The notes below the pieces were generated by a model. It was not told the DNA's origin. It saw only the letters and a list, made by a program, of their open reading frames with translations, and made no database searches. Shown here piece after piece: positions 504 to 32,642 of a stretch of 32,642 nt of DNA. The first letter of the stretch is position 1. Each line of letters starts with the position of its first letter. Origin of the DNA: Hydrurus foetidus (lineage: Eukaryota); the NCBI GenBank assembly GCA_900617105.1, contig UYFQ01000612.1, forward strand, positions 1-32,642. The letters are read 5' to 3'. Both the position numbers and the translations under genes were made by a program.

Positions 504-695
504 TTGCGAACGCTAGAAGGTGACAACTGTTCGATAGTCTTACACCAAGGCAACTCCAGACGCAAAACCCAAATGCGGTTCTTAGTCAAATGGACTGACT
601 TTGACGACTCACACAATACGTGGGAGTCGTGGAAGAATCTTCGTCTGACAGACGCTCTTCACGGCATGTCGAAAATAATTCTGACAGAAAAGTAA
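504..695 (+). pseudogene. Chromodomain remnant from the pol C-terminus of a chromovirus Ty3/Gypsy element
   Basis: IVLHQG..RFLVKWTDFDDSHNTWESWKNLRLTDALH matches the chromodomain of the element at 5322-5530 (FKVKWLNYDDTHNSWEPWKNLRLCEALH). It is followed by a 3' UTR, PPT and LTR. Confidence 0.85.
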
Positions 696-980
696 GTTCC
701 CCAGGAACGACCTACACATTATCTTTTGAAGATTCCTCCTCATTTTTACAACGTTACGTTGCTTTTCAGGAGGTTTAGTCAGTAAAAATCTGACATAAAT
801 GTGTAGGGGAACACGTAGATACAACACATCGAGGGACTCTCCTTTCTCCCTCCCTCTCGTATGCACAATTTTCTGTATTTATCGTACGTATTTATTTTTG
901 TATTATTTTGATTCTTTTTTTTCATAAACTTTAGTCATATTTGTTTTGTTACACATTGTAATTAGCGACTCATTAATAGC

Positions 981-1006
981 GAGAGAGAGAGAGAGAGAGA
1001 GAGAGA
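981..1006 (+). repeat. (GA)13 microsatellite
   Basis: Read directly from the sequence. Confidence 0.95.
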
Positions 1007-1034
1007 TAGGCTAACGAGAGATAAGTAGGGGTAA

Positions 1035-1239
1035 TGTGGCTCCCTCAGGGTCTGCTACCCCATTCAGCCGATTAGATGCTATTTCCACATTAGTATCTTC
1101 ATGTTCACAGCCACGACTATCAGTCACTAGCTAGTTTGTGCTGCTTTGCAGAAGTTACTAGCGTACCTTCTGCTTTCCCCCTAATTAACCAGTTCTTCTA
1201 GCCTTTAGACTTCCCTCTTCTTTCCCTCCCGAGGTCACA
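1035..1239 (+). mobile_element. Probable 3' LTR (~205 bp) of a chromovirus, preceded by a polypurine tract
   Basis: GAGAGATAAGTAGGGGTAA|TGTGGC parallels the PPT|LTR junction of the complete element (GAGATAAGTGGGGGAAA|TGTGGT). It ends GGTCACA and is about the same length as the other LTRs. The partner LTR is outside the window. Confidence 0.7.
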
Positions 1240-2733: not shown

Positions 2734-4794
2734 CTATGTTATCATGTTACCGTTATCATCGTCATCATCTTCCTGCAAGGCATCATAGTTCTGTGCGTAG
2801 TAATTTAATACGATTCTTTCTAGTGCATGTATATCATCCTCTTCGTTTTGTATTCCTGGAAAATCGATCACCGCTTCGTCATCATCTAAGTCCATAGTAC
2901 CCATAGGTACAACTGACATTGTTCCATTTTACTCCTCCTTCCTGTAGACAACGAATGTATCAGGTAAGTCTTCACTCTCTCTTTAAAGAGGTAGTGTGCC
3001 TGTTTTCATAAATGTCCTGTTAATGCAGTCCCTAAACTTTGCTTCTTTAAATGGTCCGTCGAATAGCACAATAATGTCTTTTATCCCACCTAACATAGTT
3101 GGCTTAGGGGGACTAAACTCGGGATTTTTTCGCTGGAGCAAAGGAAGATCATTGTCAGCTGCCCTTTTCAATTTGTATTCCTGGAAACTTTGGTACAGTA
3201 CGTTCGCCCTGTTCGTTCTGATGTGAGCCTTTAGGGGTCTGTTTACCACCAGGTCCAACACCTGCAATTCTCCTGTCATGTTCTTGGGCAGAAACACAAC
3301 ATCCACTCCGATTTCGTCTATCACTTCCATAATGCTCGTTGTCTCATGACTGCCGCAGTTGTCACACCACAGAAGCATCCTCTCCCCTACTAAAGGCTTG
3401 ATTATAACATCAAACCAGAGACACATACGGACCGTGTCGTTCCATGCCTTGCACTGGCTCGTGATCACATGTCCTGTTACTCTATGTAAAAGGTAATTGA
3501 CTTTGTGTGTGGCAGTAATATTATTGATAGTCAGTTCTCTACTCCACACCTCTAGAGACCAACCCTCACTGATCCTAAAACCGTTTTTCTTGTGCGTTTG
3601 ACGGATTACTGTCATATCAGTCTGGTCAGGGCGCTTCTCCGAACTGGCCGAATGTTTTACAATTAACATCAGAGGAGCGAAACGGCTTCTCCAGTAATTC
3701 TCATTTTTGAGTTCGAAATTCCTATGTTTGTGGCCCTCTGTTGATTTTTCGGACACCACATATGCGTTGGAGCTATACACCACGTAAAAGCAGTCTCGTC
3801 AAAGTTCCATGTGGTGCTGGGCGAATGTGCGTTTCTCACATAAAAATCTTGGCCTATTCCTAGAACTCGTGCTATTTCATCGTCACTAGGTAAGTTCTTG
3901 TCATCCCTTGTTATCTTTCGACGACTCAAACCTCCTAATTTCAAGAAATTGTGAATCCATTTGTGTGAGAATTTTATCGCTTGTATCTTTTCCTTGTCCA
4001 TCCAGTGATCAGATTGCTGAATTGCTCTTGCTGCAGTTTCTACTATTGGTGACATTTAATAGAATTCGAAGATCCTTTTCAGCAACCTATTCATTAATAC
4101 AACATTTAAATTACAAGTTTTTAATAGATCATATATTAATACATAATTGCATAAAACAAATAAGTAGAATGATGTTAAAATAAATTTACCTCATTTATTT
4201 TATTCTCTAAGATACACAACACTAGATTTCCCCATATCTCAGACACAAATTCACTGTTGATTTTTGGACCACTTTTTACCGTTAATTTGTCTTTCACTGA
4301 ATACCAACGTAATACATCCCGAGCTTTTATCGTTGAATAATAATTGATTTTGCCAAGCATTTTTTCTGTCGTTGACGCCGCAATTACATTGCAGTCGGCG
4401 TATTCTCTTTCTTCTGCCACGTCAGTAATAATTTTGAATAAATCTTATCGTCTTTTTCAAATATTATGTATTTCGATGGTATTTTAGACACCATTTCCAA
4501 CACTCTTTCATCATTTTGTATATCATTCAGAGCAAGATTATCATTATCATCATCTTCCGAGCTTACACTTTCCTCATCACCGTATTCAGCACTATCTATT
4601 AATTTCCGCTTTTTGGTGTCTTCTATTTTAATCGCAGAATTTAAATAGTATTGAATGTTATTCTCTCCAAAAATTTTCTTTACAGAATCCAACAAATTCA
4701 CTGTATTCTTTTTGATGGTTTTTTTCCCTAATTTAGATGGTGATTTCCGTGTAACGCGCTTTTTTTTCTCAACTTCCTGAGCTCGTGAACGAAG
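2734..4794 (-). pseudogene. pogo/Fot1-like transposase, 3' part (CENP-B-type HTH, DD35D catalytic domain, acidic tail)
   Basis: HTH motif KFSHKWIHNFLK..LSRRKIT; catalytic motifs WNFDETAF, LWCDNCGSH and ELQVLDLVVN (35 aa between D2 and D3). GT-AG intron at 4189-4087. Several frameshifts, plus two in-frame TAA stops before the Asp-rich tail that ends at 2734. Confidence 0.9.
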
Positions 4795-5000
4795 TGTAGT
4801 CCAGATGGAGGGAAGAGCGAAAGACGAGTAGGTGGTAGTTAGTTTACAACTAAGCTAGAAGCTAGGTAACTTCTACGAGTAGGCTGCAGCTAGCTAGCTA
4901 GTCGTGGTAGGGCTGTATATGTACTGTAGGCGGAAGGATCGGGTGGATCGTGACAAGGTCCGGTACGGCCCGTAGGCCCGGTATACCCGGTACGACCACA
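4795..5000 (-). repeat. 3' LTR
   Basis: 205/206 identical to 10728-10933 and adjacent to the PPT. Confidence 0.97.
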
Positions 5001-5022
5001 TTTCCCCCACTTATCTCTTTTT
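5001..5022 (-). promoter_or_regulatory. Polypurine tract
   Basis: The minus strand reads AAAAAAGAGATAAGTGGGGGAAA immediately before the 3' LTR. Confidence 0.9.
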
Positions 5023-5321
5023 TGAAGAAATCTAATCTATGACGCGACCACCACGTTTAAAAATATAATAACTAATAATAACTAAGAAAGGAAAAGAAAA
5101 TTTAACGAAAACTAAAATGAAAAATATAATAAAGAATATTTACAAAATGTAAACTGTGGTGGGTCGGTCGACGAGAAAAGTGGTGCCTAGTACGTAAGTA
5201 CATGTGCCCGAGGCCTCGATACGTAATTATGTCAGATTTTTACTGACTAAAACCATAAAACCTCCATAGAGGGAAAATTAGGAAAAATCTTCAAAAGATA
5301 ATACGTTCGAGATCAGTCTTC

Positions 5322-8300
5322 TTAGACTGATGCCTCAAGATTCTTGGGGATAAAATGTTTCATTTTATTGTCCCTCAAGTATTCATGGAGTGCTTCACAA
5401 AGCCGTAGGTTTTTCCACGGCTCCCATGAATTATGAGTGTCATCATAATTAAGCCATTTGACTTTGAATGACATTGTCGTAGGCTTCTTTTGTCACCTGA
5501 GTGACTAAGAACCTTTTCCACTACAAATTCCATGTAGTCACGACGAGCAGTGTCAGCAGGTACATCGACCTCTGAATCATAATTAAAAATTTTTAAATTT
5601 TTAATATGTACACTTCGTTCTTGTGTGTGACAAGGTTTGCGAGGATATACTCGGATCCTTTGTAGGAGATAACACGGTACGGGCCATGCCACGTAGTGTG
5701 TAACCGAGTAGGCGGTCGATCCGTGTAACGACATAAAACATATGTCCCTATAGGGAACACTGTCGCACACTTAGCTGATGCCGCGTGTTTAGCGTCTGCT
5801 GACACCAAAGCTTGAACAGCTGAATCAAGGACCTTGTCCTGAACGCTGATCAAGTCCTCAATGTATGTTGATCTAGAATGTGTATTCACACTTAAGTGTG
5901 GTGTTAAAATACCACGATTCAAGTCAAGCTTGTTTCCGAACAGTAAATGTGCGGGCGCAACTTTAGTGCGTCTATTAACTGAACTGTTAATGATGCGTTG
6001 CACAAATGGGATTGACTTAGCATATCCCTCTAGGGTCTGTTTATCAAAAACAAGACCTCTTAGGTGTCTATTTACCTCTTTGTTGACTCTCTCAACAATC
6101 GCATTTTCCTCTTTCGAGTATGCGAGGGTTAAATTATGTGGCGTACCACAAAGATCTAAAAATCTTTTATTAAATCGTTTGCGAAATGGGATCCTCGATC
6201 CGATCGTATCATGTTTGGCGAGCCGAAACGGCCAAAATGAGAGAGTAGGCAGTCGGCCGCTGATTTTGCGTCTGCATTTGCACACCAAAATAGTTCAGTC
6301 CAACGTGTGAACGTGTCGATAATGACAAGGATATAACCTTTGTCTGGGAATGGACCGATATAGTCAACATTCAGCGTATCGAAGATAGCATAATTCGACG
6401 TTGCAAAGTGAGACGCATTGATTTTAGGATCTTTTGCGCTCAACTTTTGACAACACGGACAGTTCTGTATGAACGTACGTACATGTTGTTTCATGTTTTT
6501 CCAAACTTGTTGTAAACTGAACAACCGAGTAAGGGTACGATCTACACCGTTGTGACCAACAAACGCATTGTGGCACATTTGAATGTATTCTAACTGATCG
6601 TCTGACGCTGGGTCGATAGCTGTCAAAGCTGACACAGTGACCGACGACGACGAAGTTGGAAGTAATTCCAATTCCGTTATTCGTAACGGTAATGCGATTT
6701 CTGTCAAGTTAGGACATAATCGCGACAATGCGTCGGCTAAGGCATTTGACGTGCCAGGTACGAAGACAACCGTAAAATGAAGTTCTTGCATAGCAATGAA
6801 CCATCTTGCTACCATTGAGGTAGGGTTTTGTTTCATATACGTGATATTCAAATGATCCGTATAGATTGTGAATGTACGATCTCTGATTAAATAATCGAGT
6901 TGTGTACAACAGTAGAATATAGCATACGCTTCTTTCTGTATAGTTGACCACCGTATTTGTGTTGGTGTCAATGATTTGCTTATAAAAGCTATTAGTTGCC
7001 AAATGGTATCAACCACTTGGAAAAGGACACCGCCGATTCCAAAATCAGACGCGTCTGTATATAATCGGATATCCAATTTATTGTCATCAATGAAGTACAT
7101 TAATGGACAACGAGATATCGCGATCTGTGTATCGTGAAAGCTGTTGGTACTCGTTTGAGTCCATACAACGGCCGAACGTTTCGGTGCAGAATGATCTATC
7201 ATATCTTGCATTGGTTTAACCAAAGTAGAATGCATAGGTACAAACTGTCGAAAATAGTTCGCTAATCCTAAGAATGATCTTAACAAAGTTAAGTTCTTAG
7301 GTATAGAAAAGTTTAACACTGTTTCTATTTTCTCTTTTGACATGGATAAACCATCTTTGTCAACCACTCTGCCAACGTATTCAATACGAGGTAAACCAAA
7401 GCGGCATTTTTTGGCTTTGAGTCTAAGACCCTTAAGTCTGAATCTTTCAAAGACTTTGTTCAAGTTCTTTAGAAACTCTGCTTCACCCTTGCCATATACT
7501 ATACAATCGTCGAGATACATCTCACAACAATGATAGATAAGGCCATAGAGGACCGCCGTTACCATCTGCTCTTGAAAGTAAGAGGGGGCACGACACGGAC
7601 CAAAGGGCAGTCTCGTAAACTGAAAAACCCCCGCAAAGCATATAAACGCTGTGAATATGCGGTGTGCGGGGTGTAACGGTGCTTGATGGTAACCCGCGGT
7701 TAAATCCATCACACCAAAAATATCCGGTTTTTTATTACCGATCCTCTCAAAAAGATGTTTGATATTCGGCAGGGGAAAAGAGGCGGGAGTCAGGCACTTA
7801 TTAAGTGGCCGGTAATCGATGCAGGTTCGAAATTTACCGGGTGACTTAGTTACGATTACAGGATGACTGTAATAAGCAGCATCTGACCGCTCTATAACCC
7901 CGACGCAAGCATCTCATCGAGATTCTCCTTAAGAGCAACCTCTTAGTCGATGACTGGGGACGTACCGGCGTACGGTTTTCGTCTTTTTCCCACAACTCAA
8001 GTGGGATGTTAATCTCAAAAGGTTTGAGTGACGCTGGTTTCTCAGCTAACTGATCACTAAAAATGTCTGAATATTCAGAACAGAGCTCTCGGAGCTTCCT
8101 CTGAAAGCTTTCATCTCCCTCAAAGGTAATCTCGTTGAGGAAATCCTCTGGCCCCTTGGGCAAGTCATCTTGACTAGGTTTCTCAGCTAAGAAGGGTGCG
8201 AACGTGTCTATCTTGCCATCGTCAATCTCGTCAACTGAGAGTGCGACACCACTGGGCCATAAAGGCTCAGTGACATAGTCGGGGGTATCAGAATCCCCAA

Positions 8301-9166
8301 AGGTATGTGTAAGGGTGGGAATCTGGTCGCCACCTAGGTGCGGTGTATCACCCGTACGTTTTGCGAGAATAGTAGTGACACTATTCAGTCGCTCACAACT
8401 TACATCACCACAGGAATTTTGGGTAGCTACTCCCTCCATATCCTTTTGGGTATCGTTACATGTCGACATTGAATGGACACAGGAGACGTTGCTCTTCGAA
8501 GAAGATTGACCAAGCAAAACGCTCTTCTTATATGGGTACTCTTGTACTCCATATGTAACCCTCTTTTTAGAGGTAGGTTTACCGCCTGGATATTTCAGCT
8601 TGTCGTAATGAGGCGTGATAGACTCGACTTCAGCTGTATCTGGTTCGGCCCCCAACGCTATCATACGATGCGTATACTTATGTTGATACATGGGATCAAG
8701 TCTCAACAAAGCTTCCTTCTTATCGAAGTCGCGTTTGCGCGCATCGCTTTTCTTCTTATTCTCCGCGCTTAGTTCTGGCGAGATGCCGAAAGCAAACGGA
8801 GTTAAGGACCAAAAATCGTATTTATTTACCGTATCACGGCTAAATAATATGTTGATATTCGTTTTCCGAATAGGTACATGTGGCTGCACTTCGACATGAT
8901 CGTCAGTCAGATTAAAGACATCATTATCGAAAGTGACAGCCACGCAGTCCTGGGCAAGGTTCTTACCTTGGTTTTGTCCCGGCTGAGTGTTGTCTCGGCT
9001 AAATAATATGTTGATATTCGTTTTCCGAATAGGTACATGTGGCTGCACTTCGACATGATCGTCAGTCAGATTAAAGACATCATTATCGAAAGTGACAGCC
9101 ACGCAGTCCTGGGCAAGGTTCTTACCTTGGTTTTGTCCCGGCTGAGTGTTGTCTCGGCTAAATAAT
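5322..9166 (-). pseudogene. pol: Gypsy pol polyprotein (degenerate protease end, RT, RNase H, integrase, chromodomain), frameshifted
   Basis: RT: FRTCIDYR, DLTAGYHQ, LPFG, YLDD. RNase H: YTDASDFG, KEAYAI, TDH, ADALSR. Integrase: H..H..CPCC, VDYIGP, RSDRG, IVERVN. Chromodomain: VEKVLSH..FKVKW..NSWEPWKNL. At least four frame changes (~7930, ~6160, ~5620, ~5480). Confidence 0.95.
8837..9166. repeat. Exact 159-bp tandem duplication (53 codons, in frame)
   Basis: Units start at 8837, 8996 and (partial) 9155; AVTFDNDVFNLTDDHVEVQPHVPIRKTNINILFSRD occurs twice in the ORF. Confidence 0.95.
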
Positions 9167-10717
9167 CTGTCGATATACCCTTATGGGCAGGCTGATGCTA
9201 TTGCATTCACCATCGAATGAAAAAGGATTGTTAAATCGCAAGTTTTACATTGATCGTCGCGACCGCTACACACCGTTATGGCCCTATGGGTAGGATAACA
9301 AAGTAGTATAACGTTAAGAATTTTTATCATGTAAAATGAAATAAAACCCTATATAAATTCGCTGTACCCCACACGGATTGATCAGCGGCGCTCTGATGGC
9401 TAACCGGTGTTGTGTGCAGTCAAAAGATACGATTGTACTTACGATCACTTCTTTTCAATCAATGCAATATTGCATTGCAATAATTTTACTCAGCATAAAG
9501 CTGTTCAAGAAACGTGATAGCGTGAACGAAAAGAGCGAATCATACTAACGATCTTTTGATTTATGTTGCAAAGCAACAGAACATTTGCAATGTAAGAAAT
9601 ATTACAATCGAAAAGTTTAGCTGAAAGCTGGAGGAACACTCCTTATTTTTCATTTTTTTTTTTTTTTTTTTAAAAGTGTTACAGTTTCAAAATTTTGTTA
9701 AGACTTGAAATCCGTTCTTAAATGTAACAAAATGTGTACCCACATATTGAAAACTAATAAAAAATGTACGACATTTTCAAATGTACGAAACGATGACTCA
9801 CCCCTACTGGGGCTCGAACCCCGAACTCAGGATGGTCAGTAATCCTTGGAGGATATTTTCTTTAATCGTCGATATCTCTCAACTGAGAACGATTCGAGAG
9901 ATTAGAAGCTTCAGATCATGTTTATATGGTTGTTAGGCATCTTTCTATAGGTTCTGACCTTTTCTGGGTCAAAACCTGATAAAAATCAGTCGAGTACGAC
10001 GATGTCGCGCTAAGTTCATAACTCAGCAGGATGATCTCGAATTCAACCCGAACTCGATGTAAACGATTCTATAGGATGCAAGAGTTCATTATCCGAAGGA
10101 ACAATGATGTCCGCATGCGACTTCTCTAAGTATCTTCTGTCAAAAGATTAGCAGAAATCGTTTATTCACTCGAGATATTTCTCCGAAGAAAAATGGCTGT
10201 ATCTCGGTGAAGAGGTTAGCCCTGCTCGAAATTTTTTTTCAAGAGCTTCGCCTCTCTTACTAACGGGTACTGTGCGTCAGTAACAACGAGGGAAGTGATT
10301 CTACCCAACTCTTGAACTGAAAAGTTCTATGGCGTAAGAGCCAAATTCTGAGTGGTAGAAAAAGTGGATACCTTTTAAGGTATATGCTGCTGCTTTTCAG
10401 CGACAAGAAGACGTCTCTTGACTAATCTTATGTCAGCGGTGATGAATCCGTGATTCAATCGACCGTCAGAGCAGATCTTTAATGAATCTCGGGAAGGATC
10501 TTTCGACTTCGACCGGAAACTTAAAGAATGGAAGAGCCCAAGCTTAGGGATTCCAAGAAAGCAGGTATGCTGACTTTCTCTAACTTAAACTAAAGTTCTC
10601 TGAGCTCAAAGCTGCAAGAGAAGTCGGCCGTGGCGGACAATAGATCGCTCAGAAGTCTTATCTAAAAGTTGAGGACAAGTAGATGGACTGAGAAGTAGTA
10701 GAAAAGAGGTTTGACGA

Positions 10718-10727
10718 ATAGCGCTAT
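10718..10727 (-). promoter_or_regulatory. Palindrome ATAGCGCTAT at the primer-binding-site position
   Basis: Directly abuts the 5' LTR, and there is no TGG-initiated tRNA PBS. Confidence 0.7.
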
Positions 10728-10933
10728 TGTAGTCCGGATGGAGGGAAGAGCGAAAGACGAGTAGGTGGTAGTTAGTTTACAACTAAGCTAGAAGCTAGGT
10801 AACTTCTACGAGTAGGCTGCAGCTAGCTAGCTAGTCGTGGTAGGGCTGTATATGTACTGTAGGCGGAAGGATCGGGTGGATCGTGACAAGGTCCGGTACG
10901 GCCCGTAGGCCCGGTATACCCGGTACGACCACA
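10728..10933 (-). repeat. 5' LTR
   Basis: 205/206 identical to 4795-5000. Confidence 0.97.
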
Positions 10934-11676
10934 GAAGTACAATCGGAAGGTGTAGATCGCAAAGAATTGAAGCAGGAGAAGAATGGGTGGAAGAAGGACA
11001 ATTATTTTTAAGAAGCAAATCATTCCTAATTGCAAGTATTCTACGCAGAAGATCGGTTTCGGATTCGTGCTTTGGAGGTTCCTCTTTCTGGTACCCGAGA
11101 AACTTAATTTCTATCATTCTTGTGGCACCTACGAGATCATAGAAATCTCGAAGGCCATTTGTATTGCTTCCCATCGTTACTGCTAACATTCCTCTGTTGC
11201 GAAACTGCCTTTGGAATATGTTCATTCCATGCTGTAGAGCATCGGAATCGATACGGAAATTTGCTGTCGCAGCGTAGGGTAAATTATTGAGTTCTTGGCT
11301 GATTTCTACAGCTGACCATTGTTTGTCGGTATTGTTTTTATTGACCTCATGCCTAGCTAGAAAAATTGCCACCATGAAGGCGCAGTAATCGACAGAAAGC
11401 AAATATTCTTTCACTTTGGCCTTCATAATGCCTGTTTTCAGTGTGCAGGGATATATTGTATGAGAGTTAGCGCCATCGTGCCGGAGATTGCTTCAACATA
11501 ATATTGACCGTATTGCCTATGAAGTTCAATGGCCAAATCGTCCAACTTTCACCTGGTCTCGTTGTTATCTGCTCGGGAGTTGCCCCACTCGATAAATTCG
11601 TCGACTTCTGTCTTCGTAATCAAATTCAGACCACAGCCTCTGTCAGCGTAAGAAGTAGCACAGATGAAAGCTGATA
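10934..11676 (-). pseudogene. 5' part of the ORF interrupted by the Gypsy element (N-terminal extension of the pogo-like transposase)
   Basis: Removing the LTR element and one GAAG joins the ORF starting at 11426 (..DLHLPIVL) in frame to RSRAQEVEKKKR..KKNTVNLLDSV of ORF 4701-4384. Confidence 0.8.
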
Positions 11677-11813
11677 CCAGTGCGGTGCACAATCGAAACC
11701 GGTGCACAATCGAAACCGAAAACAGCTGGTGTACAACATACTCCTTCTGCCAGTGTCCGTTTGCAATTCACAATTCCTCCTCATCGGTGACTGTTCTATC
11801 GACACTGAAAGTT

Positions 11814-12302
11814 ATGGAAGTTCAGGACGATCACGAGCTTCCTGGATTTTTTGTCGGAATTGATTTTAAGGTAGCCGTCCCAAATGTTGCGCAGAAACAG
11901 TGGATGGTGAATAGGATCATAAGCGGTGTTGAAAAAGCTGCGAGCATTGCACGGCGTTACAATTTTAGGAGGAAGACGTTGAACGTTCTTGTCAAACGGA
12001 GCCGACAGGGAATCCCAATCCATTTGGGGGCGGGAAGACCACGAGTGCTTGATGTTCTGAGCCACGAAAATATCGAGACAAATATTGGCGATCAGACCTG
12101 CGCATCCGTTGACGATCTAAGAGCCGAAATCAAGTCAGAGTTTGTTTCGACATTTGAACGGCGTTATCCAGCGCGATTTGCGGAGCTAGCGGATCAGCAG
12201 AATGAAGTAAAGATGGCCAGACGATCATTGCAACGGTACATTTCAAGACTTCACCCCGGCGTTTTCGCGGATGCCATTGGAGGACAGAATATCGCGCTAT
12301 GA
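11814..12302 (+). CDS. 162-aa HTH DNA-binding protein, paralog of the transposase N-terminus with no catalytic domain
   Basis: QKQWMV..ARRY..LV..GAGRPRVL aligns by eye with QKLWLV..TERY..LV..GAGHPDLL of the facing transposase. The first ATG inside the TIR is at 11814. Confidence 0.75.
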   Translation: MEVQDDHELPGFFVGIDFKVAVPNVAQKQWMVNRIISGVEKAASIARRYNFRRKTLNVLVKRSRQGIPIHLGAGRPRVLDVLSHENIETNIGDQTCASVDDLRAEIKSEFVSTFERRYPARFAELADQQNEVKMARRSLQRYISRLHPGVFADAIGGQNIAL

Positions 12303-12334
12303 GACTTAAATTACAAGGAGAAATCGTGGCTACA

Positions 12335-14124
12335 CTACGCAGTCCCTTCAACATCATGGTTTACGGCAGGCTCGACAGTAGCATTCTTTTTAGCTCTCTT
12401 TCTGGGGACTACACCGGCGGCAAGTCTAGCAGCGGCGGCTTCCTTTCTTTTTATCGTGTTCTCCTTCCTCACGTCGACGGCAGCAGCTTTGGCAAGGCGC
12501 TTGGTGTCCTCGCTGGCATTGACGGCTGGATTTGTGAGGAAAATGTATCTCCTACGATTGAGCACCAAGCTTTCGCGGTCTCCGTTGTAATGGCCACCTT
12601 GATCGAATCCTAGTATTTCGTAGTCTCGCTCTTTCAACTCTCCATTCGCCTTCATCAGAGCGCAAAGCTGGGGTAAAGCCCTCTTTACTTGATTCACTTC
12701 TTTTATTGTGAATTCTTCTTTGCATTGCCCGAGGATACGGTCTACGTCACAGCCCCCAGAAACTGGGTCATACTGCCCGGTAATCTTGAACGACTCCACG
12801 ATGATATCCTTTCTTAGCGTTGTCTGCAAAATGTATTGAACAACTTGTAGACCCTCGATGCATGACTTCACATGATGACATGGTAGCTTACCTCCAACAT
12901 TTCTTTCATGTACTGTAATCATAGCCCTCAATCTCTCCGACATAGTCTTCTCTAGTACTTCGGCAATAGATTTTATGCCACGCTTCTTGGTCTTTGAAGA
13001 AAGGAAGCACTTACCAGCATCACAGGGTTGAGTGATAGAAGTCGTTGAGGCTGGTGGCTTTCCAACTATGATGTTGTGCTCCACACACATGTCAGCCATC
13101 GCTGATGTCTGCAGAGGTTTGATTTGGGTGTCCTCCCCGTCCAGAGTGAAGTAGGATGGTTTCGAGTCTTCGATACCGTAACGAACTCTCAAGTCCATCA
13201 CGAATTTGATGTATATTGTAGCAAACCACCATCTGTAGAATTCCTCATTGACTGATCTAGTCTTGGCGAAGACTACGTAACCGTCTGCTCTAAGGTCGGT
13301 ACCGATACCAAGGCCAGGAACCAGATGTACATCGATTGCCCCCGCCACCATGTTGTCGTCCGCACAGATGTATATTGGAGGTGCAGTCGCACCCGTTGCA
13401 TTCATGCAGAGATAGAATTTGACGAAGTACGCTGTAAGAGAAGAACCCTTGACAGGTAGTACTTTCAGAGGCCCTCCTCTAGCCCTCTGCTCTTCCGGGT
13501 CATATATGACTTGTATCTTATCTGTCAGAGCGCCACCAGTCTGATATGATGTACCGTCTGCATTGATTGCGATATGAGCATCTGTCAAAGGCATCACTAA
13601 ATGATGAGCCACAGCGACAGAAGCAGCATTATATTTGTTGGCAGTAGCAATCGCTCTCGCATCTGTCGTCTGCTCCGCGTAACCCAGTTTCAGGCTCATT
13701 TTCTCGATGTTTCTTTTGACAGTCCACCGAGAAATCGGTGGAATTGAGCACTCAGCGATTCCTTTTTCTTTAGTGACTTTCGCAACGAGCTCGGCCTGAA
13801 GAATCTTGCTGAACTCAGCACGATTCATGTTGTGGATTCCAGCTGATACTTGGGCCTTCACTTTGTCGAGTTTAGCCGGCCCCAACAGATCTGGATGGCC
13901 AGCACCGTTTCGCATGGCCTTCTTGTGCTTGTATTTATAGACAAGTCCTTTGATGTAAGATTCACCGAGGCTGTATCTTTCAGTGAGAAATTTGTAGGAA
14001 ACGTCGTGGTGTAGGACCTCATGCACGAGCCAGAGCTTTTGAGATATCGACAACTCGTTGACGCTTAAGTTCGAAGCCGTTTAAGTTCAAACGGACAAGG
14101 TAATCTCTCTGGAGGACTCTCCAT
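12335..14124 (-). CDS. DD39D transposase (pogo-like DDxD) with N-terminal HTH
   Basis: 572-codon open frame with INADGT, FTLDGED and ITQPCDAG (39 aa between D2 and D3) and a basic NLS-like tail PRKRAKK. The likely ATG at 14124 is one base out of frame at CTTAAA-CG (~14081), either a real lesion or an assembly indel. Confidence 0.88.
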
Positions 14125-14841
14125 GTTTTCGTCTGGAGTTTAGTGCAGTAGTCACCGAGATATCGTTGAAATGAAGCATAGTTGATAGGGTTGTATTTAT
14201 TTCAAAAGTTCGAATTCGGTTTCGATTGTGCACCGGTTTCGATTGTGCACCGCACTGGGATACTCTGAACAAAAGACAATGATGCTCAGAGTTGGTGGGA
14301 AGGCAATATCGATCGAGATACCGACCATAGTATGTGAAGAGAAGAATAATGGCGATGAGATCGATAAGGTAGCATTTTCCTCAACCGGTTGGTACAACTA
14401 CGGAGTTGAGTCTACGAAAACTTATTGACTATTTTTTTGAAAAAAAAGAAGCCGAACACTCAAATGGACCTGTCTCCTGCAGTTTTAGATTTTTAGAATC
14501 TAAAACATTCATTTGTGAATGAAACTTTGTGAAATGGAAATTGATAGGTTGGTAGTAGTGAAGTTGCATGTTGCACTTTTGGAATTGCAGTATTTCATGA
14601 ATTCAGATTGTAATTCATGTAATTCATGTAGTAGTTGATGGCACCATGACGTGAACCTTGTGCTTGAGACGCTCTGTATCGTTTGTGAAAGATGATTCAA
14701 TTCTCTCAAATGAGGAATAGAAGTAGCAAAGAGGAATGTTTTGCAATTGTGAAGTTGACACTGATTGATGAACAATTTTGATGCCGATTGCTGCATGAAC
14801 TGATCGTGCGTCACCGTTGTGCTTTGATTATCTTAGATTCA

Positions 14842-14978: not shown

Positions 14979-17900
14979 ATGAATACAAGAAAACCATCGG
15001 AAAGGAAGAGAAAATTTGATGACATTTATGACTATGTCGATGGCGAAACTTTTGTTGAAAAGAAGTCATCGAATTGCAAAATGAAGGCTAAGATAACATT
15101 TGACGAATTGAAAGTTTTAGAAGTCTTTGACGATTCAACTGAATTAGTTGAAACACCTGAAAAATTGTTCAAAATGCGTTCTTTAGAGAAAACAAAGATG
15201 TTTATCTCTAAACTAAAAGACTTCGAGAGCTGTAATATTAAAGATAATAAAAAAATGAGTTCTAAAAATAAAACAACTCAATTGATTGTTAGTATAAAAG
15301 GCTTTGAGAGTTCTAAGGAGAAATATAATAATAAAATTACTCGAAATTTTTGCAATTGAGTGCCGTTCGTGATTGAAAGTTTCGCAGAATATAAATAATT
15401 TGATTGAATTAGTTAAGACGCCTGAAAAATTGTTCAAAATATCTTCTTTGGAGAAAACAAAAAAAATTGTCTCTGAACTAAAATGCATCGAGAGTTGTAC
15501 TGAAAATGCAAAAAAAACAAAGTCAAGTAAATGCATGTTAAGAATTATCAGAACGGATAGTATTATGAAAAAGAAATGTCCTGGAAAAGAGTGCATATGT
15601 CAACGTAAAAACAATTTGAAAAGTAATAAAATTTCCTCTAGCTATGTAAATTCTATTATCGAAAGACGGAAGAACGTAATATCAGAAATTAAAACTATTA
15701 GTAGTATTGAAGGTAATGATATAGTTGAGAAGTTGTCGAAATCCATGTATAGTGTTCCAACTTCATCCCAACTTAAAGGACACGATACTGATCCTGAAAT
15801 ATTAAAAGCAGTACTGCTGCTGTGGGAGAATTTGGGAAGAGGACAATTTGGAAAATTGAGTAATATACTAATAAATGATAAAAAGGGAAATAACATCGAA
15901 ATGTTTGATAAAAATATGAATGAAATAAAGAGAGAAATATCAAAAGAAAAATTAACAAAAGCAAAAATGGAAACAATCTTGACGAATTTTTTGGAGAAGA
16001 TGTGCAACAAAAAAAAATTATTGACGTGTGCTTTATGTGGTGAGAGATCATTCCATTTATTCTATAAAGAAGTTTCAGTTGAAGATGACTTAGCACTACT
16101 GAAGCTAAATAATAGTCAAATTGAGGAATACGAAAATTTAAATGAATACAAAAATATAGCATCTGTGGCAAATATACAGAGCATTTTATATTATTTACAT
16201 CCTGAATGCATAACGCATGAAAAGAATATTTATAAAACACATTTGTGTGGATGCTGTTATAGCGATATACGTAAAAACGTAATGCCTAAATTTAGTATTG
16301 CTAATGGACATGATTATGGTGACTTCAGAAGAATAAAGAATCTCCAACCATTAACAATAGTTGAGAAACATTTAATTAGTTGTAATAGAATGTATGGAAG
16401 CATTTCAAAACTAAAAAATGGAGAAAATAGACAACTAATCGGCAATATCATAACATTTGAACAGAATGGACCTGATAAATGTGCAGAACAATTCAATTTA
16501 CCTGACGTTGTAGGAATAACAGAAGTCCTGCAAGTTGCATTTCTTGGTAGTAAAGAAGAGTTTGAATCAAGACGTAAAGATGTTATAATGAGTTGTGGTC
16601 AACTTCAAGTCAGATCTACAAACATTTATAGCTGGTTAAGAATGTTGAAGAGATGTAATCCCAAATATTGGAATATCGAAATAAATGAAAGCAATCATTG
16701 TATAGACTTGATGAACAATATAACAAAGAATCTTGTAGATCAAATACAAATAATTGATAATAAAACATTAATTACAATTGACAGAGTAATCAGTAATGAC
16801 ACTTCTAAAGTTCGTGAATTGAATATTGATGAACATATCGCATGTGCAAATAATACTGATGAGAATGGTTTATATAATATACCTATTTCAAATACAATGT
16901 TATTTTCTGAAAGTTTACAAGTAAATGAAGAAAATTTAATTAATAAGACTTTACAAGGGGTTGCTAAAACAATATTTCCTAAACTGATAAAAGTAGCACG
17001 ATTAAGCAATGATCCAATAAACGAATATGAGAACAATAGTAAGTTGTACTTGGGACTTTTTCCGTACCTTTTCATATTAGGTAAATTTGGGAATGGTATT
17101 GAATTAAAGGGAACAATGCCTTCGAAGTACATATTGCATCTCCTACATCAAAGGTAATTAATTTTTAATAAGTACTGATAACTTAGTTGCAAAAGTTTGT
17201 ATTAGTTATTACTATTGTTTATAATACTAATAAAATTATTTTTATATTTTTTACAGAACTTGTGCATTTGCCCAAGAAACTAAATTAATTTTCACATTAT
17301 TCAATCAAAGGCAACGGCATAAAACATCTTCAATTGTTAGTGTAACAGCAAAAAATGATCCTGCACAACTAATAAAGTTAGGTCAGACATTAACATGTTC
17401 AAAATTTAAAGACAGGTTAGAAAAAAGTATAAAGAATCCCCATGGAAAAGAAGCTAAATATACATTAAAAATGATAAATTCTCTTTTAAAAGTAAATGGA
17501 GGAAAAATAATAGGTTCACCCGCTGAAAGGAAAGTAGCCATAGGTACAATAATATCAATGGTACAATTTTTTTGCTGCCCTAGTGTATTCTTTACATTTG
17601 CACCTGACGACATACATTCGGTACTTACATTGAGAATTTCATGTCCAACAAAAAATGGTAATAATGCATTTCCGGCTATTGATGATGGCTTTGAAAGTTT
17701 CCTACAAAATAAACATACTAATAAAGACTTATCAATTATCATGGACGATCAAATTGATATATCAGAATATAATTTAAATAAGTTATTAAGTATGAATCCA
17801 GTTGCGGCTGCTTATGTATTCAAAATAACACTTGAAACAATATTTGAAGTTTTATTTGGAATAGTTCCAGATTATTTATCTAAAATTACTATTCCTATTT

Positions 17901-20900
17901 CAAGTAGATGCCACGGAATTTTCGGTCAAACTAAAGCAGCCTATACTGTTACTGAGGTTCAGGGTCGCCTTAGTCTACATGGACATATGACTGTATGGAG
18001 TGTTTTATCTCCTACCATAATACAACAATGCATTCAATGTAAAAAACTAGTTAATTCAGTTAAGGAAGTTATTTTATCTCAGATATCCTCCAGCATACCT
18101 TTAGAATATCATATGAAGGCATTAAACCGGCAGGCAACTCCACCTGCACATCAATCTGCTAGTGATCCTCCAAGATCTTTTTTTGACTCACCTTTGCCAA
18201 TTACAAGTATTAATGAATTTAATGATCACGTATATAGCGTTGTGAACTCAACAGCAGTACATCAACATTCAGATACCTGTATTAAAGGTCCCTTAGGTCA
18301 TGTAGGGTGTAGATTGTCATATCCGTCCAATTGTACTCCTGGAAAAAGTATAGAAATCAATGAACTCAAAATTGTCAATACCAATAATAATAATAAAGTG
18401 GATAACAATAAAGTTATACGTCAGAATGTCATTGAAAAAATAACAATAATTCGGATGAATTAATGTATAAAATAGTACCAGAAAAAAACATCAAATTCAA
18501 TAATATTGAAAGTAATTTTATTATGCAATATAAACCATTAGGATTATTAGATAATAGATGCATAGTGATGGAAATTCAAAAAGAAATATTCTATGAGGAG
18601 AAAAAGAAAATTTTTGAAGATATATGTCAAAAAAAATAAACAATACAATCGTTTCGATACCTGTATCGCAAGACATTCATTATTCATATAGAGGTTTGCA
18701 TTTAAAAGAATTATCACTTTTTGAGTACTCATCAGTTATAGAAATTGTTAAAATTGAAAATAAAAAAAATTACAATACAGAGTCAACACTTCCTAAAAGA
18801 AAAAAAAATACAACATATGCCTTTCAAAAAATGCATCCATTACATGAAAGTTATTGTCAAAGAATAAGATCTAAATTGCTTATACCATTATTAGTTGGTG
18901 GATCTCCATTAAACTTTAATTCTATCGATGACAATAACTTTCATCATACTTATGATAATTGCTCAACTGTAGAAAAAAAATATTTGGATAGAGCAGCACT
19001 GTACTACCTGACTTTAACATCACCGTGGACATTACAAACTCATGAATCAAAAAGAAAAACATCTGAGCTAATTCCAGAAGCAGGGCATACATATAGTAAT
19101 TTTGTACAATATATGAAAAAACTGAAAGGTTATGACACCACGTCAAATTCTTATAAATCATCATTTTTAAACAGATGCTTATACAGCTATATAGTTGAAA
19201 CTTCAAGAAATATGAAAACAAAAGTTACAAAATATAGAGCACGATCAGCTGATATGTGGGAAGTCAATCAGAAAGGACCATCTAAGTACCCAAAAAATCA
19301 AAGTGTATGTCAAAGTATTAATTATTGGCGTCACAAACACAATATTGACAACACTTCTAATCTAAAAGCAACAAACAATGCAAACGAGGAACTTGAAATT
19401 AATGATACAGAAACACTGCAACTAATTAAGACTCTGCAAGATCATTGTTCAAATACTACTGATTTAGCGACAAAAAAATGTTGATTTAAATAATTACTTA
19501 AATAGCAGCCATAAAGCATTCTTATCAATAGCAATGGAATATGAGAAAAATGAACGAGAGTATCTTAATAATTTTGCATCAAACGAATCAGCAGAAAAAG
19601 TTTGGAATAGTATACGCGAAAAAGAATTTCAAGAAGCAATTGCTTATGATTCAAATGAAGACAATGAAGCTTCATTAAAAAGTAGTATGCATTATAACTT
19701 AAATTCAGATCAAAGTGAACTTAATTATATTAAATGCAATATTAATCCAACTAATGACCAAGCTAATGTATTAAACACATTAACTTATTGTGTAGAAAAA
19801 AATTATGATGAACATTTTTTAATTTTTATCCATGGAGGACCAGGAGTTGAAAAAACATGGACTATGAATGAATTTAAAAAAACGCTAATGAAAAATAATA
19901 AAAAATTCATATGCACAGCATACACTGGAGTTGCAGCTAGTTTACTAACTGGAGGCGAAACAATACATTCCTTGTTTCAATTTCACATAGGTGAAAAAAA
20001 TCCTGAAAAATGAATAAGGATTTGAATACTAATTCTTTACGTATTATGCATAATAAATTTAAAGATTGTAATTACATAATTATAGATGAAATTTCAATGG
20101 TTGGTTCATTGATGTTATACAAAATACATAATAGATTGCAAGAAATAACAGGAAATAACTTACCATTTGGAGGAAAAAATATGCTTGTCGTAGGTGATTT
20201 CTTTCAAATTGTTCCCGTTGGAGATTCTTGTCTCTATAAAGATATTATTAAATACGTTGTTTTAAATAATGATATAAGTAACAAATCAAATAAAAAACAA
20301 AATAAAAACATGGTGAATGAGTTTGCTATTATTGGTGCAAAATTATATACAAAATTTAAATTATTATCATTAAATGATCAAGTGAGAGCAGCAGAAGATG
20401 AACTTCAAATGGAATGCCTTCTTTTATTACGAAGTTTTAATGGAAACCAAGTTTCGAATAAACTATTACAGTCATTAATACGAAATAATTCTTTAAATAA
20501 AAAAGATTTTGAGGAATGTAATACAAAAAATGAAAATAATACATGGTTTTCAGCGCCTTTGGCAGTTACATCAAATTGTGAAAGAAATCATTTGATGTTT
20601 TTAAGAGCACAAATTTGGGCTAAATTGGTGGGTCAACCAATAATAACATGGAATTTACAATGCAGAGGCGCATTTATAAATTATTTAACTGAAAACAATT
20701 GTATTGAAGAAATATATCACAATCAAAGTGGTCTCATTGGTATATTTGTACAAGGTGCAATGTCATACATTACTGAAAATGTAAATCCAACAAAAGGTTT
20801 AGCTAATGGTACCGCAGTGTACATGCACTCACTAACATTTTCTGATGAAGACATGAAGACAGATTATTATAAACAATTTGTTAAATTATTGCAAGTTGCA

Positions 20901-21558
20901 AAACCTGGAGAACAAGTTATTATTAACAAAATTATTCCAACATTTATAAATGTTGAATTTATAATGCAAAAAGAACTAAAACCATTTTGGGGTGCAACTG
21001 AAACATTATGCACTAATAAAGTTATTATTCTTATTGGCTATAAATCAAGATCAGAAAAAGTCACAATAGATATAAATGTTAATGGACAAATTTATCATAA
21101 CATAACAATTAAAAAAGAGAAGGAACACAGAGTAGAATTATCTTTCATAATTACATTCCATAAATTACAAGGAAAAACATTACCAAAACTAATTATTCAA
21201 CTCAATGAAAGATCTTTTTTACCTCCTATAACATATAATGGACTTTTTGGTGGCTTTATCAAGAGTTAAATTCCGTTCAGATCTCCGTATTATGCCTATC
21301 AATTCTGGAAATGATATATTATATTTAAAGAAATTAGCACCTGATGAAAATTTACAAGTTTGGTTGGGAGGATACAATTGTGATGGTGATTGGTCAAAGG
21401 AAAAATGCCAAGAGTTTCATGATCATAAAAAACTAATTTCATCACAAAAAAAAATAAAACAAAAAAGAACTTATAAGAAGACAAAAAATTGTTTTTTATT
21501 AGATAATGTACTAAAAAAAATGGTGAAGAAAATAAATGCTATGAGGATGTTACTCTAA
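14979..21558 (+). pseudogene. Helitron Rep-helicase (Cys-rich/DUF6570-like N-terminus, HUH Rep, Pif1 SF1B helicase)
   Basis: N-terminus: CALCGE, CGCC..PKFSIANG, WLRMLKRCNPKY. Rep: FFTFAPDD and EVQGRLSLHGH. Pif1: GGPGVEKT, AYTGVAA..TIHSLF, IIDEISMV, FGG..GDFFQ, GLANGT, TFHKLQGKT, VALSRV. A GT-AG intron at 17154-17256 restores the frame (LLHQR|TCAFAQE). Several frameshifts. Confidence 0.93.
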
Positions 21559-21566
21559 TTACTCGA

Positions 21567-22649
21567 ATGAAAAGTAGTACAAATTTGACACCAGTTCTTG
21601 AAATTATAAATAATCTAAACAATTTTGACTCAAAAAATAACGAAATTTCTATAATACCAGATGCAGTTAAACACAATGAAACTTTACTGCATATTGACTT
21701 ATTAAATACATTAGAAGATTCAAGAAACCTAATAAAATATTCAATGCAAGAATATAATACACAATGGAGAAATAATTTTAATCTTCTAAGTAATACGACA
21801 TATTTTACCGGAAATAATCAATTAGAAAAAATTTGGCATATTGCCCCTGATGAAATACAACTGACTGAACAATATTTGGAACAAGCAACTCATATGATAA
21901 ATAATGACCAGCCAAATTCTTTTATGCCTGATTACAATAGTAGATTTACTCATTTTCCAAGTGATGCATTGAGTGTAAGAAATCATACTTGGTTAACAGG
22001 AACTATAATGGATGTGTTTCTATACTCTATGACTATAGATGTCACAAATGGTTCTATTAATGATGCTATTAATGTATTTAATACTTCGTTTTATGCTAGA
22101 CTTTTAAATACTTTCCATAATGATGCTTCACATCCAGAATGAAATACATACAACTACACAGCAGTGACTAATTACACTACTCATTTTACAAGAACAGACA
22201 TTTTAAAAACTTCTATCATACCTATTCATATACCAAATCATTGGTTGTTATGTATTATAGAACCTAGCACAAAAACATTCTTCATTATAGACAGCTTACG
22301 ACATCAGAACTTAGATATAGTGCAAAATATACGAATGTGGTATAATAGTGAATTAGAAAGATTAAATTATAACACAAGTTCTAATTCAGAATTTTACATT
22401 GATTGGAATCTAGTGACTTCAAATAATTTACCTTCACATGTTCCTCGTCAACAGGATTCTTCATCCTGCGGCGTCTTCGTCCTCATGTGTGCCTTCTATT
22501 GGTATAAATACAATAGATTACCGAATTGTAATTTAGATTGGAATTCAAATGATATTAATTCAAGTAGGCCAAATTTAAGACAGTTCATTTTATATTTCAT
22601 TATTAAAAGTGTTTATAATGAGTCTATAAGATCATTAGATTTAAGATGA
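21567..22649 (+). pseudogene. Ulp1/SENP-family (peptidase C48) cysteine protease domain of the Helitron
   Basis: WLTGTIMD, FNTSFY, IPIHIPNHW, IIDSL, PRQQDSSSCGVF (H-D-C triad plus oxyanion Q). One in-frame TGA at 22140-22142 separates two same-frame ORFs. Confidence 0.9.
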
Positions 22650-31493: not shown

Positions 31494-31593
31494 TGTGGTC
31501 GTACCGGGTATACCGGACCTCGTCACGATCCACCCGATCCTTCCGCCTACAGTACACATACAGCCCTACCACGACTAGCTAGCTAGCTGCAGC
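31494..31593 (+). mobile_element. 5' half of an LTR from the same family as 4795-5000 (opposite orientation), interrupted
   Basis: Matches the reverse complement of the 206-bp LTR with an 18-nt deletion between TACCGG repeats and 2 substitutions. The match stops at GCTGCAGC. Confidence 0.92.
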
Positions 31594-31809
31594 TGTGACC
31601 CGAACAGCTGTACAGCTGTACGGGTACCGGCGTACGTTCGGTTCGGATCGAGGACGATCCGAGCCATCCGATTCATGACTTGCCTATCTCTGTGTTTATC
31701 TGTAAGCTAACCACAACTTTAGCCAATAGCTCCAGCACAACAGCTGCCTTCCTTTTGCCCCCGCGCCCTGTCCCATCAGACCCACCTCAGAGCCCATAGT
31801 TAGGCCACA
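31594..31809 (+). mobile_element. 5' LTR (216 bp) of another LTR retrotransposon inserted into the preceding LTR
   Basis: TGTGACC..GGCCACA termini, followed by the palindrome ATACTAGTAT, a leader and an ORF running off the window. Confidence 0.75.
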
Positions 31810-32357
31810 ATACTAGTATTTGGACCAACTTGGTGCTCTTTTAGAGACCAGTTCCAAAACGCGACCCAAAAACATCGCCACGACCCGTAAAACGGCGTGC
31901 AAACAAGCTAGTAACTTGGAAACAAGTGAAAACAACGTCGAAAGACACTACAAAGGCTACGTCTAATCGACAGCCTCTGAAACGCTTTAGTTAAAAAGCT
32001 CGAGTCGTCGATATTTTCGCGACAAAATCGTGACGGCTTCAAAACTCGAAGCCTAACGAAGCAAGTAGCTCTGAATCGAGCAAAAGCAAGTCCCATCGTT
32101 ATAGAAACAAAAGCTGGCCCAAACGCCCGCAGTTTAGTTCCTTGAGAGGTTCAAACCGCCAGGCAACTTTTCGAGCGATTTCCAACGAAATCGCGCGAAA
32201 GTAAACCAAGAAATACTTCTCAGTTGCTAGGATCCTCTGATCCCACGCAATCATAGCTGCGGGGCCACATCCTCAGCTCCATAGAGCGCCGCGTCCGAGT
32301 TCCGTCGCTGTCCAAGACCCCAAGATCCAGACATTTAAGACTCAAGACAAAAGTCCG

Positions 32358-32642
32358 ATGACAAGGGCCCAAATAAAGAAGAAAGCGGCTGCTAACGCAG
32401 CCGCCTCTACTTCTTCAGCTCCAAGCGCTTCGCGCAGTGCTCCTCTCACTGAGAAGGAAAAGCACAAAGCGGAGCAGGCCCTTGTAAAGCAAAACATCGA
32501 GAAATCGATACAGGCTCTGGCAAAAGAAGCAATACATGTTTCGTCTACCCCAACTCGTCTTGAGGACGCAGAAATTTACTACCAGAGCATGGTAGCAGCA
32601 ACAAAAGAAATGCAAGCAGCTCACAAACTCGAGCAAGCACAT
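32358..32642 (+). CDS. Putative gag N-terminus (partial, open to the window end)
   Basis: MTRAQIKKKAAANAAASTSSAPSASRSAPLTEKEKHKAEQALVKQNIEK.., 95 codons without a stop, ~550 bp after the putative 5' LTR. The call is positional only. Confidence 0.55.
   Translation, partial: MTRAQIKKKAAANAAASTSSAPSASRSAPLTEKEKHKAEQALVKQNIEKSIQALAKEAIHVSSTPTRLEDAEIYYQSMVAATKEMQAAHKLEQAH

What the first reader, a model, noticed from the sequence alone, without database searches (positions are those of the whole stretch)
10717..10728. Palindromic, non-tRNA primer-binding site with compensatory changes across two LTR families
Seen: the 5' LTR of the complete element is followed by CA|ATAGCGCTATT, and the unrelated LTR at 31594-31809 by CA|ATACTAGTATT. 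Both are 12-bp perfect palindromes counting the last LTR base, and the core differs (GCGC vs CTAG) while self-complementarity is kept. There is no abutting TGG PBS, and I see no complement within the LTR as Tf1-type self-priming would need. Known: most Ty3/Gypsy elements prime on tRNA; Tf1/sushi chromoviruses self-prime. Inference: priming by intermolecular pairing of the two genomic RNAs or by foldback, possibly doubling as a family-specific dimerisation signal.
Basis: partly seen in the sequence, partly recalled or inferred. Interest (0 to 1): 0.75.

Follow-up and report, generated by a model that had tools for sequence, protein, structure and literature searches.

The report
Palindrome replaces retrotransposon tRNA primer site
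Two jumping genes in this window, and a large group of their relatives, carry a short self-complementary sequence exactly where a tRNA primer normally binds; it likely lets two copies of the element's RNA pair and prime each other's copying, a mechanism not yet tested.

Summary
Confirmed and general. Both 12-bp palindromes start at the last base of a real LTR: element 1 has twin LTRs and a CTTC target duplication; contigs diverge behind 31809 for element 2. Among 80 related metagenomic loci (chromodomain Ty3/Gypsy, median RT identity 47%), 57 reach an LTR/gag junction. With the two window elements and one nested element, 58 of 60 junctions are perfect 10-16 nt palindromes with 32 different sequences. 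On an RT tree, 47 of 48 inferred changes are two-sided, most at the innermost pair, which a hairpin cannot form. No TGG site (0/58), no Tf1-type complement of 10 nt in the LTR (0/27), no GalEa-type second arm (0/57). Best reading (about 50%): the two packaged RNAs pair here and one is cut to prime the other, a trans version of Tf1 self-priming. This is inferred, not tested. A 10-bp palindrome in the same register is published for fungal GalEa Copia elements; eight literature searches found none for Gypsy. This scan noted the same feature before in other genomes. Corrections: element 1 lacks gag and is frameshifted; element 2 probably belongs to the same clade.

The parts
10717..10728 (-). Palindromic primer-site element of element 1 (AATAGCGCTATT); its first base is the last base of the 5' LTR
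10728..10933 (-). 5' LTR of element 1 (206 bp, TG...CA); holds no complement of the palindrome
4795..5000 (-). 3' LTR of element 1 (1 difference from the 5' LTR); target site duplication CTTC at 4791-4794 and 10934-10937
5001..5023 (-). Polypurine tract ending GGGGGAAA directly before TG
5228..5252 (-). Conserved 3' UTR hairpin of the clade (TTTTA, 5-bp stem, loop, ACA)
5322..9372 (-). pol remnant: protease part, RT, RNase H, integrase and chromodomain, in frameshifted pieces, with a 159-bp tandem duplication at 8834-9151
9400..10716 (-). Stretch between the palindrome and the protease with no match to gag: gag is missing from this copy
31497..31593 (+). 5' part of a family-1 LTR, interrupted by element 2
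31594..31809 (+). 5' LTR of element 2 (216 bp, TG...CA)
31809..31820 (+). Palindromic primer-site element of element 2 (AATACTAGTATT), predicted at the tip of a U5-leader stem (about 31786-31846) that uses TGGACC
32358..32642 (+). Start of a probable gag ORF of element 2 (runs off the window)
   Evidence: indirect link through P0278

Best explanation
In this clade of chromodomain Ty3/Gypsy retrotransposons a perfect palindrome begins at the last base of the 5' LTR in place of a tRNA primer site, and it likely lets the two packaged RNAs pair there so that one strand, predicted to be cut at or just inside the 3' end of the duplex, would prime minus-strand DNA on the other. SHOWN: the position, the absence of tRNA-type and LTR-internal complements, strict symmetry kept through many two-sided changes, and length changes in steps of two. 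INFERRED: (1) the duplex forms between two RNAs; (2) RT RNase H cuts it, as reported for the cis duplex of Tf1; (3) the 3' end is extended into U5-R; (4) copying the partner's palindrome into plus-strand DNA and annealing it to the template copy would regenerate a mirror image each cycle, which would explain two-sided changes without G-U intermediates. Dimerisation and priming would be one event.
For: 58 of 60 junctions are perfect palindromes, with 32 distinct sequences. For the 58 junctions analysed, 0.13 are expected at a fixed base; an ACA-anchored palindrome was seen in 51 of 58 500-nt stretches against 1.2 in shuffles. The LTR end is fixed without the palindrome in 6 cases where another copy leaves at that exact base (E1, E2, L016, L017, L024, L040). 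Tree of 43 tips with 12-mers: 48 pair-state changes, 47 two-sided, 19 at the innermost pair; 353 of 355 pair cells are Watson-Crick and 0 are G-U. The centre pair is TA 28, AT 13, CG 11, GC 4. L040 and L043 (85% identical) differ by a double change at the centre. Pairing stops at the last LTR base: G follows in 11 of 57, and nothing downstream is conserved. Hairpin about 0, duplex median -15 kcal/mol. The ends are Tf1-like: CA|NT in 57 of 58, AN|TG in 36 of 41; the Tf1 PBS begins ATAAC after CA (PMC11042837).
Against: No cDNA or RNA end was mapped; only contigs were available. A trans primer would carry the partner's R-U5 as a 5' tail that must be removed or not copied, and no step for this is shown. 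Many duplexes are AU-only and weak (-7 to -11 kcal/mol at 20 C in 19 of 58). The site is no more unpaired than its flanks (0.45 against 0.45), and only 7 of 56 have a U5-leader stem at z <= -2. Symmetry alone cannot tell priming from dimerisation or from a DNA-stage role. Junctions were picked with the palindrome in view; 3 loci (L018, L020, L067) end in an LTR followed by non-palindromic, non-gag DNA that I read as flank. One family (L054, L056) has a broken terminal pair. Element 1 lacks gag, so it must have been moved by a helper.
Confidence: 0.5

Rival explanations
1. The palindrome is a dimerisation or packaging signal (like a retroviral DIS or the Ty1 palindromes) that happens to sit at the primer position; priming uses something else, such as an unknown host small RNA or fragments of the element's own RNA.
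For: Intermolecular symmetry is all the covariation demands. In element 2 and 6 other of 56 elements the palindrome caps a predicted U5-leader stem. Palindromes overlapping a PBS are known in MMTV and HIV-2 (PMC8096270).
Against: The register is locked to the last LTR base across 10-, 12-, 14- and 16-mers, which a pure dimer signal would not need. No other primer site was found (0/58 TGG; at most 8 nt of LTR complement in 27 complete LTRs). In MMTV the PBS palindromes were not needed for dimerisation.
Confidence: 0.2
2. The symmetry works at the DNA stage: the palindrome is produced or used during plus-strand transfer or through a DNA fold-back intermediate, so perfect symmetry is a by-product of replication rather than an RNA duplex.
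For: 0 G-U pairs in 355 cells and symmetric length changes fit a copying process. Tf1 cDNA keeps a single-stranded DNA copy of its PBS at the 3' end (PMC11042837).
Against: It does not by itself supply a minus-strand primer. A symmetric dimer pays twice for every G-U, so the absence of G-U also fits an RNA duplex (inference).
Confidence: 0.13
3. A dyad site bound by a dimeric protein (Gag/NC, integrase or a host factor) on DNA or RNA.
For: The outer three positions are nearly fixed (A, A/G/T, T), and CA|NT mirrors AN|TG at the other end, as an integrase or RNase H signal would.
Against: The inner six positions and the length (10-16) vary freely as long as symmetry holds, unlike a sequence-read site.
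Confidence: 0.07
4. Cis foldback: the RNA is cut after the palindrome and folds back on itself as a hairpin primer, or pairs with a second arm as in the GalEa conserved hairpin site.
For: Some MFE models draw a 4-bp hairpin inside a larger stem. GalEa is a precedent (PMC5445492).
Against: The isolated hairpins have no stability. The would-be loop bases are complementary in all 56 perfect cases and covary most. A second arm was found in 0 of 57, with 1.7 expected by chance.
Confidence: 0.05
5. A host tRNA or half-tRNA primes at this site, or at TGGACC just behind it.
For: Half-tRNA primer sites starting with AT exist in Copia elements (FunCo1 ATTAAGAGTCT). The host tRNA set could not be searched.
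Against: There are 32 different palindromes with two-sided changes; sequence behind identical palindromes is unrelated; 0 of 58 have TGG within 5 nt. TGGACC lies 11 nt from the LTR, is not conserved, and pairs with U5 in the predicted stem (z -2.5, 3 of 200 shuffles).
Confidence: 0.05

Closest known systems
Conserved Hairpin Site (CHSeq1) of fungal GalEa Ty1/copia elements (Donnart et al. 2017, PMC5445492; section 10 read whole, other passages seen)
   Same: No tRNA PBS; a palindrome that counts the final A of the 5' LTR; mechanism unknown; the authors also found no Tf1-type complement.
   Different: Copia, not Gypsy. 10 bp with two main sequences, against 10-16 bp and 32 sequences here. GalEa has a second arm (CHSeq2) 12-41 bp downstream; found in 0 of 57 here.
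Tf1/sushi (Tf1, Tf2, Tj1, Tosmo, Tcn1) self-primed chromoviruses (PMC10085805, PMC4600332, PMC6317226, PMC11042837; passages seen)
   Same: Chromodomain Ty3/Gypsy; tRNA-free site directly after CA; the site starts ATA in most members as in Tf1 (ATAAC); AN|TG and CA|NT ends.
   Different: Tf1 pairs the PBS in cis with the 5' end of its own RNA inside the LTR (pretzel structure). Here no complement over 8 nt in 27 complete LTRs, and the site is its own complement. Membership of the Tf1/sushi lineage by phylogeny was not tested: no named members were available.
Retroviral dimer initiation sites, Ty1 palindromes and the MMTV/HIV-2 PBS palindromes (PMC8096270 passages; Ty1 papers seen only as search listings)
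   Same: A short palindrome in the 5' leader able to join two genomic RNAs.
   Different: These act beside, or overlap, a tRNA PBS; here the palindrome replaces it and is locked to the LTR end.

Membership tests
Ty3/Gypsy LTR retrotransposon | LTRs TG...CA, TSD, PPT, domain order RT-RNase H-integrase | tested here: met
   best solved match Ty3 Gag-Pol, E 4.7e-70
Chromovirus (structural definition) | Chromodomain at the C-terminus of integrase | tested here: met
   PF00385, E 2.7e-9, at 5322-5477; also in the intact relative P0195. Not visible for element 2.
tRNA-primed LTR elements | TGG-starting PBS within 0-5 nt of the LTR | tested here: not met
   0 of 58; the outgroup L004 has TGGCGACGAGG
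Half-tRNA-primed elements (copia, Ty5, FunCo1, Bianca) | PBS complementary to a host tRNA anticodon arm | not testable with these tools
   No host genome; no tRNA gene in the window; 32 covarying sequences argue against it
Tf1/sushi self-priming group | Complement of the PBS (10 nt or more) inside the 5' LTR | tested here: not met
   At most 8 nt in 27 complete LTRs; mean 5.4 against 5.6 shuffled, maximum 9 in 2 of 50 upstream stretches
Tf1/sushi self-priming group | RT phylogeny within the Tf1/sushi lineage | not tested
   The tree held only clade members, L004 and five arachnid polyproteins; the clade sits on a long stem (support 0.82)
Tf1/sushi self-priming group | RNase H cleavage of an RNA duplex releases the primer | not testable with these tools
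   Known to me from the title of Levin 1996 in reference lists and from recall; needs experiment
Fungal GalEa CHS | Palindrome that includes the final A of the 5' LTR | tested here: met
   58 of 60 junctions
Fungal GalEa CHS | Second, inverse-complementary arm (CHSeq2) downstream | tested here: not met
   0 of 57, 1.7 expected by chance
Fungal GalEa CHS | Ty1/copia domain order | tested here: not met
   Integrase lies after RNase H

The most novel reading that the evidence does not exclude
A fourth way to start reverse transcription, beside whole tRNA, half tRNA and cis self-primer: reciprocal priming in trans. The two co-packaged genomes pair through a palindrome at the LTR edge, are cut and prime each other, so that dimerisation is a compulsory checkpoint for copying and the site is rebuilt as a mirror image every cycle. 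It is used by a large, unnamed Gypsy clade of aquatic eukaryotes and, convergently, perhaps by fungal GalEa elements.
Probability: 0.45. Interest if true: 0.85.

Novelty: new variant of a known kind. Interest (0 to 1): 0.66.

Why it matters
Reviews list three primer types for LTR elements: tRNA, half tRNA and cis self-primer (PMC6317226). The GalEa palindrome was left without a mechanism (PMC5445492). A deep Gypsy clade with dozens of two-sided changes, including at the pair that only an intermolecular duplex can form, narrows the options and gives a cheap, decisive test: complementation between two non-palindromic mutants. If true, priming and genome dimerisation are one step, host tRNA is dispensable without an LTR-encoded primer, and co-resident families with different cores could not prime each other. 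LTR annotation tools that demand a tRNA PBS would miss or mislabel this clade.

Tried and rejected
No whole genome was held, so no copy-by-copy survey or host tRNA search was possible. A single-protein scan of viral contigs gave one short, uninformative locus, L001, left out of all counts; alignment scans gave 3 loci. Direct searches of element 2's ORF against the clade's proteins and loci found nothing; only the route through P0278 links it. Rfam found nothing in the window; ARAGORN found no tRNA. Contig laying cannot show RNA starts or cDNA ends, and its lack of listed variants inside the palindrome is not informative: 28 rows were hidden and the stretch was short. A general stem presenting the palindrome was not found. 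An exact second copy of the palindrome elsewhere in the element was not found in 57 elements. My first ORF filter hid two true junctions (L043, L036), recovered; the statistics therefore cover 58 junctions, not 60. The Atlas search for the Pol protein did not complete. The Levin 1995, 1996 and 1997 papers and the Tf1 review are not held.

Full report
OBSERVATION. Element 1 lies on the minus strand between 206-bp LTRs (10728-10933 and 4795-5000, one difference), with a 4-bp CTTC duplication and a purine tract. It encodes RT, RNase H, integrase and a chromodomain. It is not complete as a coding unit: against the intact 1793-aa relative P0195 (83% identical over RT-integrase), residues 1-540 are absent and pol is frameshifted. 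Stretch 31594-31809 is an LTR: contigs from two runs leave it directly behind 31809 with unlike flanks (4 and 5 contigs), and it is inserted in a family-1 LTR whose normal continuation shows as loose ends at 31593. Its ORF from 32358 has 12 relatives; the weakest, P0278 (E 9e-4), matches the Gag region of the clade's polyproteins (best E 6e-25). Element 2 is therefore probably of the same clade, on an indirect link. The host looks like a stramenopile alga (nearest RpiA clusters eukaryotic, commonest diatoms); this is an inference. Palindromes of 12 bp or more are common in the window (32 seen, 11.1 expected), so the claim rests on position and on relatives.

RELATIVES. A protein search gave 407 relatives, nearly all metagenomic and unnamed; the intact forms are single polyproteins of about 1800-2600 aa. 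Of the 80 clade loci, 57 reach an LTR-to-internal junction. Of the other 23, L041 ends in a flank (same family as L040), L049's LTR is interrupted, L018, L020 and L067 have an LTR end followed by DNA without sense-strand gag (read as flank, not proven), and 18 do not show an LTR end followed by internal sequence. L067 also holds a second, inverted element, found by its gag, with its own palindrome AATACGCGTATT. With the two window elements this makes 60 junctions: 58 perfect palindromes starting at the last LTR base, 32 distinct. The two exceptions (L054, L056, one family) break only the terminal pair. The 58 junctions analysed had lengths 12 (42), 14 (6), 10 (5) and 16 (3). Those on the tree fall into 52 families at 90% RT identity, 51 of them perfect, with median pairwise identity 47%. 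Chance: 0.13 expected at a fixed base; ACA-anchored palindromes in 51 of 58 stretches against 1.2 shuffled. Junctions were curated with the palindrome in view, but in six cases another copy leaves at exactly that base (E1, E2, L016, L017, L024, L040), and two contigs (L028, L030) stop at or one base before it.

COVARIATION. On an RT-RNase H tree, the 43 tips with 12-mers need 48 pair-state changes; 47 change both sides and 19 fall on the innermost pair. Over all lengths 353 of 355 pair cells are Watson-Crick and none is G-U. The central pair takes all four forms (TA 28, AT 13, CG 11, GC 4). Close relatives show the step: L040 and L043 (85% identical) differ by TA to AT at the centre, L006 and L016 by TA to CG. 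The outer bases are nearly fixed (A, then A/G/T, then T), and sequence after the palindrome is not conserved.

RIVALS TESTED. tRNA 3' end: TGG within 5 nt in 0 of 58. TGGACC behind element 2's palindrome pairs with the U5 end in a predicted stem (z -2.5); such stems reach z <= -2 in only 7 of 56. Tf1-type cis primer: at most 8 nt of complement in 27 complete LTRs, no better than shuffles. GalEa-type second arm: 0 of 57. Cis hairpin: the isolated palindromes do not fold, the would-be loop is always complementary, and the duplex of two copies has a median of -15 kcal/mol at 20 C. The host tRNA set was not available.

MECHANISM. What is shown is two-fold symmetry locked to the LTR end, with no other primer site. 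The simplest use is that two genomic RNAs pair there and one supplies the 3' end. For Tf1, the PBS begins ATAAC right after CA and is copied into single-stranded DNA at the cDNA end (PMC11042837), and the primer is the RNA's own 5' end in a pretzel structure (PMC10085805). That RNase H cuts this RNA duplex I have only from a title in reference lists; the 11-nt primer length is recalled. This clade has the same terminal anatomy (CA|NT in 57 of 58, AN|TG in 36 of 41). A cut after base 11 of the partner would give an 11-bp primer duplex whose next templating base is the last LTR base, the Tf1 geometry in trans. Copying the partner's palindrome into plus-strand DNA and annealing it with the template's copy could turn a one-sided mutation into a two-sided one, which would account for the missing intermediates. 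All of this is inference. Open problems are the primer's long 5' tail and the weak AU-only duplexes. I put it at 0.5; dimer signal only 0.2; DNA-stage symmetry 0.13; protein dyad 0.07; cis hairpin 0.05; tRNA 0.05.

WHAT IS KNOWN. Fungal GalEa Copia elements have a 9-bp sequence that is palindromic with the final LTR A, followed by a second arm, and the authors found no fitting model (PMC5445492; section 10 read whole; passages). Bivalve TRIMs show similar inverted repeats (PMC6934838, passages). Three primer types are listed for plants (PMC6317226, passages). SM-Tcn1 has neither a tRNA site nor a self-primer (PMC2864245, passages). PMC4600332, PMC5371799, PMC8096270 and PMC10886601 were seen as passages. 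Eight searches found no description of this in Gypsy elements. The library lacks most subscription papers and Repbase or GyDB entries, and I read no supplements, so absence in print is not proven. Earlier notes of this scan report the same feature in other genomes, including microsporidia and Aduncisulcus, one with the same trans-priming idea. I had stated my reading before that look-up and did not check those notes; none matched this element by sequence or genome.

VERDICT. Real, conserved and functional-looking. It works like tRNA-free self-priming but fails the Tf1/sushi membership feature; it shares the register of the GalEa site but not its second arm or superfamily. New variant of a known kind; interest 0.66.

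Noticed in passing
window 5228-5252 (-) and about 773-797 (+); L006, L012, L015, L020, L028, L040, L045, L053, L067, L071, L078, L081 and others: A second conserved RNA motif in the 3' UTR of the clade: TTTTA, then a 5-bp stem (GTCAG/CTGAC, GTGAG/CTCAC, GTGGG/CCCAC, GTTGG/CCAAC), then ACA. Found in 16 of 62 stretches against 0.7 shuffled. In 15 aligned rows, most picked by this pattern, 98.7% of cells pair and 2 of 5 pairs change on both sides. Often preceded by a small ATCTT/AAGAT hairpin. No Rfam match in the window. Role unknown; could be packaging, 3' processing or part of the priming complex.
   Followed up: partly
window 534-1239 (+): Remnant of a third family of the same clade: chromodomain (58% identical to P0195), both 3' UTR hairpins, a purine tract and a likely 3' LTR at 1035-1239.
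   Followed up: partly
window 31497-31594: Element 2 is inserted inside a family-1 LTR. Protein P0275 appears to be a chimera of an element-2-like gag and a family-1 LTR, so the families nest in each other.
   Followed up: partly
L037 and L048: Tandem elements joined by a single LTR (period about 5.1-5.2 kb); either real tandem arrays, as described for Tf1/Tf2, or assembly loops.
   Followed up: no
L047, L054, L056: In this sub-family the LTR ends in TA rather than CA, and the inverted repeat extends into the LTR past a one-base bulge. TA ends also occur in L003, L014 and L034.
   Followed up: no
window 15373-22649 (+): Helitron-like ORFs: DUF6570, PIF1 helicase and a Ulp1-type protease, followed by repeats of about 430 bp at 22752-23607.
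   Followed up: no
window 11674-14261, 25200-27585, 2983-4055: DNA transposon-like elements: terminal inverted repeats of 47 and 41 bp and a DDE_1 remnant.
   Followed up: no
window 29255-30121 (+): Host ribose-5-phosphate isomerase A with a signal-peptide-like N-terminus; nearest clusters eukaryotic, commonest diatoms.
   Followed up: partly
window about 9790-9840 (-): Short stretch with GTTCGAGCCCC resembling a tRNA T-loop inside the gag-less region of element 1; ARAGORN and Rfam call nothing there.
   Followed up: no
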